64,000 nt of DNA from Escherichia coli. GTDB taxonomy: Bacteria; Pseudomonadota; Gammaproteobacteria; Enterobacterales; Enterobacteriaceae. The position numbers were made by a program. Location of the stretch: NCBI RefSeq assembly GCF_003790525.1, contig NZ_CP033635.1; one strand, 5' to 3'. Below, one piece after another: positions 59,201 to 62,200 of the stretch (position 1 is its first letter; every line of letters begins with the position of its first letter).

Positions 59201-62200
59201 GCAATGACTGACATTGACATGGCGCGTTCTGGCCTCACTCTTGCATCAGCTGCGATTTCAGCAATAACAGGATAAATGGAAAAAGCGACATAACCAGTTC
59301 CACATATTGCCGTAAAAAGATAAGCAACTGCTGGCCCAAGAAACGTGATTGCACCAGGCCTCTTTTGCAGTATTTTTTCAGCTATTGTCACGAAAAGATC
59401 AAGACCTCCCGCTGCCTGCAGGATAGCAATACATGTGATAACAGCAAGAATAATGGAAATGACAGTGATAGGCGGGGAATCAGGCGGGACTCCAAAACCA
59501 AAAGTCAGAATTGCGAGCCCTAATCCCCCGCCGCCCCTAAGCCGATTCCACCAAAGCGCCCACCTATCCCAATGCATGTAAGTACTATTGCAAACTGAAT
59601 TACGAATAACATCATAACCAATCCCTTTCGTCAACAAATAGCTTAATATCATGCACATAATGTGCGAATAAACATGATAAATAAATTTGTTATGATAGTA
59701 TATAAAGAAATATAATTTAATATATTATTTATAGTTATGAATAGATAGGAGCTGTAATCAGAGTATATTATGGATAAAAGAAAAGAACTATTTGAATCTA
59801 TTAAAGATTATTTGCTTGATGAAGCTAATCGTAAAGCCGATGGCCGTATAGAAACAGAAACGGAACTTGCAACTCGTTTTAACACCTCCCGATATAAAGT
59901 CCGTCAGGCACTTAGTACTCTCGTCCAAATGGGAATGCTTGAACGAGCCCCTCGCAGAGGAAGTCTGTTAAAAAACGTTGGCCAGAGTAGTATTAACGAC
60001 CAATTGTTGATGCAGTTTGATCTATCTGGGTTTGATATCTCGGAATTTACAGAGGCCAGAATTTTAGTTGAGTGCGCGATCATTCCACTGGCAACACGCC
60101 GAATTTTCCCAGCGATGCTCTCCAAACTTGAAAATGAATTGAGATTGATTGAGGAAAATGCAGACAATCCACAAATAGCAGATCAACATGATCGGGATTT
60201 TCACCTGCTCTTGCTTCAGGCCAGTGGTAATCGTGTTCTGCAGGTTTTCTCTGATGTGTTAATCGCTTATTTTGAGAAAACAAGAGAGTCGTTACCGGAT
60301 AATGATTGTCAATACTTCCTTGATACTGCTTCAAAACAGAGAGAGATATTGTCGTATATCAAAAAAGGCGATGCCCAAATGGCTTCAGAGTTAATGCGAG
60401 TTCATTTACTGGAAAAGAAAATATAGCATTAAATCTTTCAAAAACTAAAACTCAACCGGAAAACTTATCTGGTGTGAGTGCTATGTGATATCACTGTCAA
60501 GTTATTAGCTGTGTTTATCCTAATAAGGTATCTTTGATATATAAGCGAGCTTTATTGGTAAAGAGAGCGCTATCATAGCAGACTATGTTAAGTTAGAGCA
60601 GGGATGCGTAAGTCTGAGTGCCACGTCTTCTGTACGTATCGACGCCTTATACGATCTGGAAAATATTATCAGGCATAAACATAAAGGAGAACTTGCCTGA
60701 GTAGTTGCCTTTTGAGAAATTTATCTTCACTGGATGGGAGTTACCTGCCAACATGTGTTCCCGTCCAAGGACAGAACCAACAGTTGGGTGTTGATTACCT
60801 GGTGACGCGGAACCAACAGAAGTTGTAATTATGCAGGTCTGAGGAGATCAGTATCAGAGATATCCGAATGAACTGTGATAATGGTTTGACAAAAACGGAT
60901 AACAATACAACAGAACACGTTCTTAGTAATCTCAGCCATGGAAATAAAAATTAGATGTATCTCCAATCAGTGAGTTGCGTGGAAATTACAAGGTTCTGCT
61001 GTACGATCTGAGTGGGTTAACTTGATATTTTGTACTCGTCACAGAAAATATACAGAGATATACACTCTGGTGTAATCACTGTTGTAGGTTGATCAGGTGT
61101 CACTCTTTTTACTATAATGTTTAGTATAAGCAATGTTTTTTCAAAAAACGTTCTTAGAAGTAGAGTTACTAACTCCAAAGTTAATGACACAGAACCAATG
61201 ATAAAAAAAACTAATCCATTTCCCTCTTAAAATTTTTAACAAAAATAATTTCACATTTTATTTTAACGGGGAAATATTAAATAGTATATCTAACCCAGGG
61301 AAAGTTAATTAAATTCCATAAGTAACAATAGGGTTGATTTTTAAATCACTATATAGAATATTTATATAGATTTAGGTATTACGTTGGCAAGCTAGGTTGG
61401 AAAAATGAACAATGTATTAATTGTTGATGACGATATATTAGTAGCTGATGTGATTCGTCGCATTGTAGAACAAACCCCGGCATTTAAATGCTGTGGCATA
61501 GCGTTATCACTTGGTCAGGCGAAAGAAATTATATCTGTAAATAAAAAACTGGCTGACTTGATTTTGCTTGATCTTTATATCAATAAAGATAACGGACTTG
61601 ATTTACTCCCTTTTCTTCATAGCATTCATTGCAAAAGTGATGTTATTGTAATTTCTGCTGCTGATGACTCTGCGACAATTAAAGATTCATTACATTATGG
61701 TGTTTCTGATTATCTGATAAAGCCATTTCATATCTCACGTTTGGTTGATTCGCTTACACGATGGAAACATAAAAAGACTCTTCTTGAGAGTCAGAAGATA
61801 TTCAATCAATCAGAACTGGATTTATTAACTCACAAAATAATTCCGAACACAGAAAAAATAAGACATTTACCCAAAGGACTGTCAACAGATACATTGCGAA
61901 TTATTTGTAGGTGGATTGATGAGCATCAACATAAAAAATTCACACTCAATGAACTGGCCAGTGGTATTAAGATATCCAGAATCTCATGCAGAAAATATAT
62001 CATCTGGCTGGTAAGTTGCCATATATTGGCATTTGATTTTTCCTGTGGTGTCACTGGTCGCCCTGCTTATCGTTACTGGATAAGACATCAATATTACCCA
62101 TATATTAAAAAATATAGTGAAAAACCGTAAGCCTTTTAATCATTTATCTACCATAATTATGACATCTACTTAATCACAATAAACTCATCGTGCGATAATT

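What the first reader, a model, noticed from the sequence alone, without database searches (positions are those of the whole stretch)
60427..62130. DcuR-like response regulator with no sensor kinase and a 980-bp non-coding leader
DcuR/CitB regulators are normally encoded directly after their DcuS/CitA kinase. Here the upstream 980 bp is AT-rich, has no ORF of 60 aa or more on either strand, and shows no kinase remnant that I could translate. The regulator may be cross-phosphorylated by the chromosomal DcuS or CitA, or be inactive.
Basis: seen in the sequence. Interest (0 to 1): 0.5.

Follow-up and report, generated by a model that had tools for sequence, protein, structure and literature searches.

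The report
Kinase-less DcuR paralogue in E. coli island
An accessory E. coli island carries an intact second copy of the C4-dicarboxylate response regulator DcuR with no sensor kinase gene, preceded by about 1 kb of non-coding DNA; this is a real but fairly ordinary "orphan" regulator of untested function.

Summary
ORF 61405-62130 (+) encodes a 241-aa DcuR-type regulator. It scores 312.9 bits against the NCBIfam DcuR model (cut-off 262) and is 57% identical to E. coli DcuR. The phospho-acceptor D56 and the other active-site residues are intact.

The 978 bp upstream (60427-61404) behaves as non-coding DNA:
- Its longest ORF is 57 aa, as expected from shuffles.
- Substitutions between lineages show no codon periodicity.
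- Its divergence is close to the regulator's synonymous rate.
- DcuS tblastn, a DcuS profile HMM, NCBIfam on six frames, a search of 1.84 billion proteins and Rfam all found nothing.

Only the last ~350 bp are markedly AT-rich (28% GC).

Every relative examined with a kinase has it directly upstream. This regulator lacks one in all three island lineages and on IncF plasmids. It always travels with ansB2-dcuA2-aspA2. It is under purifying selection (dN/dS 0.14-0.21), so "inactive" is unlikely.

Residues that are near-invariant in kinase-linked DcuRs have changed in helix α1 and at the start of α5, and also in the DNA-binding domain. Coupling to the resident DcuS is therefore plausible but unproven.

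Verdict: a new member of a known kind (orphan response regulator), of modest interest.

The parts
55421..56803 (+). Argininosuccinate-lyase-family gene, the first gene of 'cassette A'.
   Evidence: NCBIfam argH TIGR00838 at 614.9 bits. The cassette 55427-60417 is 77% nt identical to a Citrobacter freundii chromosomal cassette.
56868..58184 (+). DcuA/DcuB-family anaerobic C4-dicarboxylate transporter (cassette A).
   Evidence: NCBIfam NF006927 at 460 bits.
58300..59621 (-). Second Dcu-family transporter of cassette A. In this window it is frameshifted by a 1-nt deletion in a C run at about 59524.
   Evidence: NCBIfam match starts only at residue 44 of the ORF. The N-terminus lies in another frame. 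There is a single-base difference from the intact SMS-3-5 gene.
59770..60426 (+). GntR/FadR-type (FCD domain) regulator, the last gene of cassette A.
   Evidence: NCBIfam NanR/LldR-like hits. Homologues of 87% identity occur in C. freundii in the same four-gene cassette, followed there by ycgJ and other genes, with no two-component system. Homology to that cassette ends at 60417.
60427..61404 (.). Non-coding stretch of 978 bp between cassette A and the regulator. It is not a recognisable kinase remnant and evolves at about the neutral rate.
   Evidence: Coding tests: longest ORF 57 aa, as in shuffles. The 122 substitutions against lineage 3 show no 3-periodicity (33/46/43, p 0.32), whereas the regulator shows 8/4/22 (p 4e-4). 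Raw divergence is 12.5%, against the regulator's dS of 0.15.

Kinase tests: tblastn with DcuS gives a best E of 1.8, and with two other enterobacterial DcuS homologues 0.04 (an 11-aa match) and 0.76. A 14-kinase HMM scores no better than shuffles.

Other searches: NCBIfam on six frames gave only a chance CHIPS hit, E 0.043. The six-frame search of 1.84 billion proteins covered the left 60453-61043 only and returned only spurious ORF calls on this same DNA. Rfam found nothing below E 0.28 in 59600-62800. RNA folding z-scores, tested for 60960-61404 only, range from -0.74 to +0.38.
60981..61058 (.). Block with no substitutions between the two island lineages, inside the otherwise divergent stretch. 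It could be a regulatory site or simply chance.
   Evidence: Pairwise alignment of the window against L098. No function was tested.
61089..61118 (+). Best sigma-70-like promoter match upstream of the regulator (TTGATC-18-TATAAT, 10 of 12), 287 nt before the ATG.
   Evidence: Consensus scan. The -10 hexamer is conserved in lineage 3, while the -35 is changed to TTGCTC. This is a prediction only.
61405..62130 (+). Kinase-less DcuR paralogue ('DcuR2'), 241 aa, with a receiver domain and a DcuR/DpiA-type DNA-binding domain.
   Evidence: It is 57% identical to E. coli DcuR. D8, D9, D10, D56, S84 and K106 are conserved. dN/dS is 0.14-0.21.
62131..62691 (.). Second non-coding spacer, between the regulator and the convergent ansB2.
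   Evidence: No family hits in six frames over 62131-62723. Plasmid copies carry an 81-bp deletion here. Homology to the core ansB locus starts at about 62692.
62696..62716 (-). Terminator-like hairpin downstream of ansB2.
   Evidence: Nine-pair GC-rich stem followed by a T run. It lies inside the segment that is 95-96% identical to the core ansB locus.
62724..63770 (-). ansB2, a second copy of periplasmic L-asparaginase II. It is convergent with the regulator and is the last gene of aspA2-dcuA2-ansB2.
   Evidence: NCBIfam NF008304 at 704.5 bits. It is 95-96% nt identical to the core ansB of essentially all E. coli. The gene order aspA2-dcuA2-ansB2 is seen in SMS-3-5, plasmids and metagenome contigs.

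Best explanation
The ORF 61405-62130 is an intact orphan paralogue of the C4-dicarboxylate response regulator DcuR.

Shown:
- It belongs to a mobile E. coli accessory module: regulator, then convergent ansB2-dcuA2-aspA2, then pepT2-dcuC2. The gene content suggests conversion of asparagine, aspartate and peptides to fumarate.
- The module sits next to cobU in about 4% of complete E. coli genomes and also occurs on IncF plasmids.
- The 978 bp upstream is non-coding junction DNA that evolves at roughly the neutral rate. It is not a recognisable dcuS remnant.
- The regulator is under purifying selection and keeps all residues needed for phosphorylation.

Inferred:
- The AT-rich last ~300 bp of the upstream stretch contain the regulator's own promoter region.
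- The protein still works as a phosphorylation-dependent transcription factor for the adjoining module.
- Its phosphoryl donor is encoded elsewhere. The resident DcuS, present in 5415 of 5426 genomes, is the prime candidate; acetyl phosphate is the fallback.
- How well it couples to DcuS, and how far its targets overlap the DcuR regulon, is open. Both the presumed kinase-docking surface and the DNA-binding domain have changed at positions that are near-invariant in kinase-linked DcuRs.
For: Family: DcuR equivalog at 312.9 bits against a cut-off of 262, and 57% identity to E. coli DcuR, the best hit outside its own cluster.

Active site: D8, D9, D10, D56, S84 and K106 align without gaps. D56 is the residue mutated as phospho-acceptor in DcuR studies (PMC9429925).

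No kinase:
- tblastn, HMM and NCBIfam were negative.
- The island annotation has no kinase.
- The only kinase in the window is the core heavy-metal-type kinase at 18974-20332, paired with HprR.
- In-silico decay controls gave tblastn E of 6e-12 or better up to 30% AT-biased substitution plus 10 indels. At 40%, 4 of 5 replicates still reached E of 3e-3 or better.

Non-coding upstream stretch.

Selection: dN/dS 0.14-0.21, Fisher p 2e-7 to 3e-3.

Linkage:
- The regulator is joined to ansB2-dcuA2-aspA2 in the four intact arrangements examined, whose left flanks all differ: cassette A (window, SMS-3-5), ISKpn26 or IS3 (GD33, 4FM, 2016C-3878), an Asp/Glu racemase with a Dcu transporter (L098, L100), and an IncF plasmid.
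- The one exception is L099, a copy disrupted by an IS element and with no ansB call.
- The public 90% cluster of this protein (587 member sequences) is named E. coli almost throughout.

Resident kinase: core dcuSR is present in 5415 of 5426 complete genomes.
Against: Fifteen of 66 receiver positions that are near-invariant in 15 kinase-linked DcuRs are changed. Ten of these cluster in α1 (positions 11, 12, 16, 17, 20) and at the start of α5 (109, 113-116). By established structural knowledge (the HK853-RR468 complex), this is the surface that docks on the kinase. Native-efficiency transfer from DcuS therefore cannot be assumed.

Nineteen of 54 near-invariant DNA-binding-domain positions are also changed, so targets may differ from DcuR's.

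The regulator and ansB2 are convergent, so no shared promoter links them. No DcuR-type site could be established: the only hit, a shared 12-mer, is at chance level (E 0.93).

There are no expression data. The divergence pattern between lineages is mosaic, which suggests recombination and weakens the dN/dS reading somewhat.
Confidence: 0.55

Rival explanations
1. Insulated or phosphorylation-independent regulator. After losing its kinase, or to avoid cross-talk with the resident DcuS-DcuR pair, the protein no longer accepts phosphate from DcuS. It acts either constitutively, through acetyl phosphate only, or through its expression level. The AT-rich promoter region would make it a likely target of H-NS-type silencing.
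For: Changes cluster in α1 and α5 at positions near-invariant in kinase-linked DcuRs. The independently kinase-less DcuR-like protein of Citrobacter amalonaticus is changed at six of the same positions (11, 12, 16, 20, 113, 115). Both orphans sit on the longest branches of the tree. The upstream 350 bp is 27.7% GC.
Against: All phospho-chemistry residues are retained, with synonymous changes at the S84 and K106 codons between lineages. That argues phosphorylation still matters. Several α1 changes are conservative hydrophobic swaps (M12L, L16V, Y20I) that might preserve docking.
Confidence: 0.22
2. Non-functional hitch-hiker. The regulator is a relic carried along with ansB2-dcuA2-aspA2 and has no role.
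For: There is no kinase. The flanks are long non-coding stretches rich in IS elements. Truncated or IS-interrupted copies exist, such as the 154-aa copy in L099 and partial cluster members. No close relative is found outside E. coli.
Against: dN/dS is 0.14-0.21, significantly below 1 in three lineage comparisons. The exact window sequence occurs on at least 1000 contigs and two other full-length alleles on 433 and 74 contigs. Active-site residues are conserved.
Confidence: 0.12
3. The 978-bp stretch is an in-situ decayed dcuS-type kinase gene, eroded beyond recognition.
For: Position and strand are right, since every kinase-linked relative has the kinase there. The ATGA stop/start overlap and about 11-15 nt of similarity to the dcuS 3' end or ribosome-binding site persist; blastn homology to E. 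coli starts at 61394. There is a marginal in-frame resemblance to the G1-box region of one DcuS homologue in the last 150 nt (score 34; 1.6-2% of shuffles reach it; not corrected for four tests).
Against: No significant similarity was found by tblastn, HMM, NCBIfam or the 1.84-billion-protein search, which covered only 60453-61043. Controls show reliable detection up to about 30% AT-biased substitution plus indels, and detection in most replicates at 40%. The stretch is about 650 bp shorter than a dcuS gene. Its left edge coincides, within about 10 bp, with the end of an independently mobile cassette.
Confidence: 0.1
4. The stretch encodes an unannotated functional element, such as a small RNA, a small protein or a long structured leader.
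For: A 78-bp block has no substitutions between lineages. There is only one indel column against 122 substitutions.
Against: There are no Rfam matches and no excess RNA stability in the tested 60960-61404. Substitutions show no codon periodicity. IS truncations of the left part are tolerated.
Confidence: 0.05

Closest known systems
E. coli DcuS-DcuR two-component system (dcuSR-dcuB-fumB locus)
   Same: It has the same regulator family and architecture, passes NCBI's DcuR equivalog model, and is 57% identical. The phospho-acceptor D56 and the acidic pocket are the same. It is associated with C4-dicarboxylate and aspartate genes (Dcu transporters, aspartase).
   Different: There is no dcuS gene, whereas in the canonical locus dcuS ends 4 bp into dcuR. 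It is the most divergent DcuR-clade member found. The presumed kinase-docking surface and the DNA-binding domain are changed at near-invariant positions. It is accessory (about 4% of genomes, plus plasmids) rather than core. Its neighbours are ansB2, dcuA2 and aspA2 rather than dcuB and fumB.
CitA-CitB (DpiB-DpiA) citrate two-component system
   Same: It belongs to the same CitB/DcuR superfamily, with a DpiA-like HTH (Pfam PF20714, weak hit).
   Different: It scores only 104.7 bits against the DpiA model (cut-off 264), against 312.9 for DcuR. It is therefore not a DpiA orthologue. CitA as phosphodonor is possible but less likely than DcuS.
Kinase-less DcuR-like regulator of Citrobacter amalonaticus (P0054), next to ydhYVWXUT-like genes
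   Same: It is also a DcuR-clade regulator with no kinase gene upstream. The upstream stretch is about 1.8 kb and holds IS remnants in one contig. It also lies on a long branch and is changed at positions 11, 12, 16, 20, 113 and 115.
   Different: It is only 46% identical to the island protein, lies in a different genomic context, and is evidently an independent event.
Orphan response regulators in general, and insulation of paralogous two-component pathways (established knowledge; not tested here)
   Same: It is a regulator gene without an adjacent kinase gene, acquired horizontally into a host that already has the paralogous pair. Substitutions lie at interface positions.
   Different: No partner, signal or target has been determined for this one.

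Membership tests
DcuR (NCBIfam NF007750 equivalog) | Full-length match above the curated cut-off of 262 bits. | tested here: met
   312.9 bits, covering residues 1-238 against model positions 1-238 of 239.
CitB/DcuR-type response regulators | N-terminal receiver domain plus a C-terminal DpiA/DcuR-type helix-turn-helix domain. | tested here: met
   Pfam Response_reg E 2e-17. HTH_64 is only weak (E 0.036). The protein nevertheless aligns end to end with DcuR, including ISR(V/I)SCRKY(L/I)IWL and GVTGRP.
Phosphorylatable receiver domains | Acidic pocket (D8, D9, D10), phospho-acceptor D56, S/T84 and K106. | tested here: met
   All are invariant in the 18-sequence alignment, including both island alleles. 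The S84 and K106 codons differ synonymously between lineages. D56 is the residue used as phospho-acceptor in DcuR work (PMC9429925).
DcuS-DcuR two-component system (as a system) | Cognate DcuS-type kinase encoded immediately upstream with a stop/start overlap. | tested here: not met
   The kinase is present in all paired relatives checked. It is absent here: tblastn best E 1.8, 0.76 and 0.04 (the last an 11-aa match), the HMM scores like shuffles, and NCBIfam gives no kinase hit. There is no kinase in the annotated island.
DcuS-DcuR two-component system (as a system) | Conservation of the receiver α1 and α5 residues that are near-invariant in kinase-linked DcuRs (the presumed DcuS-docking surface). 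| tested here: not met
   Ten changes, at positions 11, 12, 16, 17, 20, 109 and 113-116, among 15 changed near-invariant receiver positions.
DcuS-DcuR two-component system (as a system) | Activation of dcuB, frdABCD and dctA that depends on C4-dicarboxylates and on DcuS. | not testable with these tools
   This needs reporter and phosphotransfer experiments. The shared 12-mer AAAGTTAATTAA with the dcuB upstream region is at chance level (E 0.93).
Orphan response regulator | Regulator gene with no histidine kinase gene adjacent or in the same mobile unit, in all copies. | tested here: met
   Seen in the window, SMS-3-5, GD33, 4FM, 2016C-3878, the IncF plasmid pMTY9754 and metagenome contigs L098-L100. 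The only kinase in the 64-kb window is the heavy-metal-type kinase paired with HprR, 40 kb away.

The most novel reading that the evidence does not exclude
Two independently kinase-less DcuR paralogues, this E. coli island protein and the Citrobacter amalonaticus one, have changed at six of the same otherwise near-invariant α1 and α5 positions. This could reflect convergent insulation from the resident DcuS. On this reading the island protein is a rewired regulator that responds to a different kinase or is independent of phosphorylation. It would place a horizontally acquired Asn/Asp-to-fumarate module, and possibly part of the DcuR regulon, under a new input in lineages that include many poultry and human isolates.
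Probability: 0.2. Interest if true: 0.5.

Novelty: new member of a known kind. Interest (0 to 1): 0.3.

Why it matters
Aspartate, asparagine and C4-dicarboxylates fuel anaerobic fumarate respiration of enterobacteria in the gut, and DcuSR is the central sensor for them.

A mobile module duplicates asparaginase, a Dcu transporter and aspartase and brings its own DcuR-type regulator without a sensor. That raises a concrete, testable question: does a horizontally acquired regulator plug into the host's existing kinase, or is it insulated from it? The module is found in ~4% of complete E. coli genomes, many from chickens and humans, and on IncF plasmids, so it may contribute to gut fitness.

In practical terms, RefSeq names this protein simply 'DcuR'. 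That hides the fact that it is a divergent, kinase-less paralogue present alongside the true DcuR.

Tried and rejected
1. By-eye 'G1-box-like' fragments. I saw one at about 60830-60900 and another at about 61255-61340. The first has no statistical support. The second reaches only 1.6-2% of shuffles, uncorrected for four tests, and is not colinear with the kinase stop. Two mutually exclusive candidates show how easily such patterns arise in AT-rich DNA.

2. tblastn of E. coli DcuS and two other enterobacterial DcuS homologues against 60300-61500 gave only noise.

3. A profile HMM of 14 DcuS-family kinases against stop-to-stop fragments and X-joined frames scored within the shuffle range.

4. 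NCBIfam on six frames of the upstream stretch and of the regulator-ansB spacer gave nothing relevant.

5. phmmer of six frames of 60453-61043 against 1.84 billion proteins returned six hits. All are short ORF calls on this same DNA. Several read TGA as W, and others splice frames.

6. Rfam at permissive threshold, RNA folding z-scores and a repeat search gave nothing notable.

7. Distant blastn of the stretch against all complete E. coli genomes, and of the wider 59700-62720 region against PLSDB plasmids, found no homologue of the stretch other than the island itself.

8. The genome-contig scan with the single protein reached only distant relatives of 40% identity or less, because it needs shared 8-mers.

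9. The protein database shows nothing between 57% identity and the protein's own 90% cluster, so no donor lineage is sampled.

10. Literature searches found no paper on a second, orphan DcuR or on this island.

11. A DcuR-site search was not pursued. Published footprints, such as TTATCTCACATAATTTAT in LEE1 (PMC10636207), do not define a motif sharp enough for AT-rich DNA.
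Full report
**Where the window lies**

The window is E. coli chromosome. It contains:
- the core heavy-metal-type kinase/HprR pair at 18974-21114;
- tRNA-Ser and four tRNA-Asn genes;
- ORFs at the positions that annotated strains give to cbl, nac, ldtA and cobTSU;
- an accessory island beginning next to cobU.

Over 55000-64000 the window is identical to strain SMS-3-5 except for one base.

The region 59700-62720 occurs in 224 of 5426 complete E. coli genomes. It is mostly chromosomal, with 4 places on plasmids. PLSDB holds it on five IncF-type plasmids at 98.5-98.7% identity.

**The observation**

ORF 61405-62130 (+) encodes 241 aa.
- Pfam finds a receiver domain (E 2e-17) and a weak DpiA-like HTH.
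- NCBIfam's DcuR equivalog model matches end to end at 312.9 bits (cut-off 262). DpiA reaches only 104.7 bits.
- Outside its own cluster, the best hit among 5.8 billion proteins is canonical E. coli DcuR at 57% identity. Nothing lies between 57% identity and the protein's own 90%-identity cluster. That cluster has 587 member sequences and is named E. coli almost throughout.

The gap-free alignment with DcuR keeps D8, D9, D10, D56, S84 and K106. D56 is the residue mutated as phospho-acceptor in DcuR studies (PMC9429925).

The previous gene, a GntR/FadR-type regulator, ends at 60426. The 978 bp in between have a longest ORF of 57 aa. This is what shuffles of the same sequence give: a mean longest ORF of 59.9 aa, with 57% of shuffles lacking any ORF of 60 aa or more.

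GC content is 39% in 60427-61050 and 28% in 61051-61404. Only the promoter-proximal third is markedly AT-rich.

**Is the kinase normally there?**

Yes. In canonical E. coli the 543-aa DcuS gene ends 4 bp into dcuR. The same holds for two other enterobacterial relatives. In 13 of 15 Firmicutes loci a DcuS-like ORF sits directly upstream.

**Is there a kinase remnant?**

- tblastn of E. coli DcuS against 60300-61500 gives a best E of 1.8.
- Two further enterobacterial DcuS proteins give best E values of 0.04 (an 11-residue match) and 0.76.
- A profile HMM built from 14 DcuS-family kinases scores no better than on shuffled sequence.
- NCBIfam on all six frames finds no kinase family.
- RefSeq annotates nothing in the stretch in any listed genome.

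As a sensitivity control, I decayed the last 978 nt of E. coli dcuS in silico with AT-biased substitutions and 10 indels, then queried with heterologous DcuS proteins.
- E was 1e-12 or better at up to 30% substitution.
- E was 0.13 to 6e-7 at 40%.
- E was 0.41 to 0.002, near the noise level, at 50%.

DNA similarity to E. coli dcuR begins at 61394, 11 nt before the ATG. It covers the AGG ribosome-binding site and the ATGA overlap. This is compatible with a vestigial junction but is not significant.

One in-frame resemblance to the G1-box region of one DcuS homologue was found in the last 150 nt. Only 1.6-2% of shuffles reach it, uncorrected for four tests, and it is not colinear with the stop. 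I treat it as chance.

**What the 978 bp is**

A third island lineage came to light through a spurious 36-aa ORF call. It is represented by contigs L098 and L100.
- It aligns with the window from 60073 (inside the GntR gene) to 62522 at 92.7% identity.
- To the left it has quite different genes: an Asp/Glu racemase, a Dcu transporter, and a Sel1-like ORF on the other strand.

Across the 978 bp there are 122 substitutions and one indel column, giving 87.5% identity. Identity falls to 77.5% in 61201-61404.

The substitutions show no codon periodicity (33/46/43, p 0.32). Those in the regulator do (8/4/22, p 4e-4). The raw divergence of 12.5% is close to the regulator's synonymous divergence, dS 0.15. 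The stretch therefore evolves roughly neutrally.

Other tests:
- A search of 1.84 billion proteins with six frames of 60453-61043 returned only ORF calls on this same DNA. Several have TGA read as W, and others splice frames.
- Rfam gave nothing.
- RNA folding of 60960-61404 showed no excess stability.
- The repeat search gave nothing notable.

Homology to a C. freundii cassette (argH-like lyase, two Dcu transporters, GntR regulator) runs from 55427 to 60417. In Citrobacter that cassette is followed by ycgJ and other genes, not by a two-component system. The left edge of the stretch therefore lies within about 10 bp of a cassette boundary.

IS elements have inserted into or truncated the stretch in many genomes. 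Homology then starts at about 60475, 60493, 60554, 61153, 61290, 61295 or 61319. Where the annotation was checked, the regulator ORF is still called.

The best promoter-like site is at 61089-61118. Its -10 hexamer is conserved in lineage 3.

**Is the regulator functional?**

Between lineages, dN/dS is 0.21 (window vs GD33), 0.14 (window vs L098) and 0.15 (GD33 vs L098). Fisher p values are 5e-5, 2e-7 and 3e-3. Synonymous changes fall in the S84 and K106 codons.

The divergence profile is mosaic: high upstream and in the receiver half, and near zero from about 61850 to 62370. Recombination therefore contributes, and the estimate rests mainly on the receiver half.

Full-length alleles are common in public data. 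The three alleles queried occur on at least 1000, 433 and 74 contigs.

**Linkage**

In the four intact arrangements examined, the regulator is followed by the convergent ansB2, then dcuA2 and aspA2. Beyond these, where the sequence extends far enough, lie the divergent pepT2-dcuC2. The left flank differs each time. The one exception is L099, an IS-disrupted copy with no ansB call.

This makes the regulator part of the Asn/Asp module rather than of cassette A.

The module is itself mosaic. ansB2 is 95-96% nt identical to core ansB, with a sharp boundary at about 62692. In contrast, aspA2, dcuA2, pepT2 and dcuC2 have no megablast match to their core paralogues.

**Partner and target**

Core dcuSR is present in 5415 of 5426 complete genomes, so DcuS is almost always available.

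I aligned the island protein with 15 kinase-linked DcuRs.
- It differs at 15 of 66 near-invariant receiver positions.
- Ten of these lie in α1 (positions 11, 12, 16, 17, 20) and at the start of α5 (109, 113-116).
- It also differs at 19 of 54 near-invariant DNA-binding-domain positions.

By established structural knowledge of kinase-regulator complexes, α1 and the β5-α5 region form the kinase-docking surface. Some of the changes are conservative (M12L, L16V, Y20I), so the result is inconclusive for DcuS coupling.

A DcuR-like protein of C. amalonaticus is also kinase-less. It differs at six of the same positions. The two orphans have the longest branches in a neighbour-joining tree.

**Conclusion**

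The finding is real: an orphan DcuR paralogue preceded by about 1 kb of non-coding, neutrally evolving junction DNA. 'Inactive' is unlikely.

The most probable mode of action is a phosphorylation-dependent regulator of the adjoining Asn/Asp-to-fumarate module, fed by a kinase encoded elsewhere. DcuS is the first candidate. The interface changes keep an insulated or phosphorylation-independent mode open.

Orphan response regulators are a well-known kind, and this one is uncharacterised. No paper on it was found. RefSeq names it simply DcuR.

Noticed in passing
window 59524 (gene 58300-59621, minus strand): A one-base deletion in a C run, relative to SMS-3-5, frameshifts the second Dcu-family transporter of cassette A after about 32 codons. 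It is the only difference from SMS-3-5 in 55000-64000. It could be a real pseudogene, phase variation or a sequencing error.
   Followed up: partly
window 62692-63765: The island's ansB copy is 95-96% nt identical to the core ansB of essentially all E. coli, with a sharp homology boundary about 30 bp past its stop. The neighbouring aspA2, dcuA2, pepT2 and dcuC2 have no megablast match to their core paralogues. The module is therefore a mosaic, or ansB2 has undergone gene conversion.
   Followed up: partly
window 55427-60417; loci L091-L094: The four-gene cassette (argH-like lyase, two Dcu transporters, GntR/FCD regulator) is a self-contained unit. It is also found in the Citrobacter freundii chromosome (77% nt, 87% aa for the regulator) and, rearranged, in another genome at 70% aa. 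Its substrate is unknown.
   Followed up: partly
window 61123-61404 against L098: Divergence between island lineages peaks at 77.5% identity just upstream of the regulator start and declines on both sides. The whole 978 bp shows only one indel column for 122 substitutions, which is fewer indels than I would expect for neutral non-coding DNA.
   Followed up: no
window 61301-61312; L084 4897-4908: The 12-mer AAAGTTAATTAA lies in a block conserved in all island lineages. It also occurs once in the canonical dcuR-dcuB intergenic region, about 390 bp upstream of the dcuB ATG. The match is at chance level (BLAST E 0.93), but it could be checked as a DcuR-type site.
   Followed up: partly
L096 and L097 (Citrobacter amalonaticus and a metagenome contig), regulator at 7001-7723: This is another kinase-less DcuR-like regulator (P0054, 60% identical to E. 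coli DcuR). It follows about 1.8 kb without called genes, or with IS remnants, and precedes ydhYVWXUT-like genes. No DcuS remnant was found by tblastn.
   Followed up: partly
L090 4406-6726: A second DcuS/DcuR-like pair (regulator 46% identical to the island protein) sits between a porin gene and an mtfA-like (Peptidase_M90) gene. Its neighbourhood includes DNA methylase and Vsr genes, an HD-domain gene and two LysR-type regulator genes, and resembles the chromosomal region of this window.
   Followed up: no
L098 5410-5925 and 5872-6230; window 60073-60426: In the third island lineage only the 3' 354 bp of the GntR gene remain. A 171-aa Sel1-repeat-like ORF on the opposite strand runs into that remnant. 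This lineage therefore descends from an arrangement like the window's.
   Followed up: partly
window 62131-62691; L087: The regulator-ansB2 spacer (about 560 bp) is a second long non-coding stretch with no family hits in six frames. IncF plasmid copies carry an 81-bp deletion within it, at about window 62520-62600.
   Followed up: partly
proteins P0161-P0166 (public protein collections): Public gene calls on this non-coding DNA include artefacts: ORFs that read through TGA as W and frame-spliced peptides. They appear as the only 'homologues' in large protein searches.
   Followed up: yes
window 60475-61319 in other genomes (H1-H4, H57-H61, H97-H105): The stretch is a frequent site of IS3, IS5/ISKpn26 and other insertions and truncations across E. 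coli genomes.
   Followed up: partly
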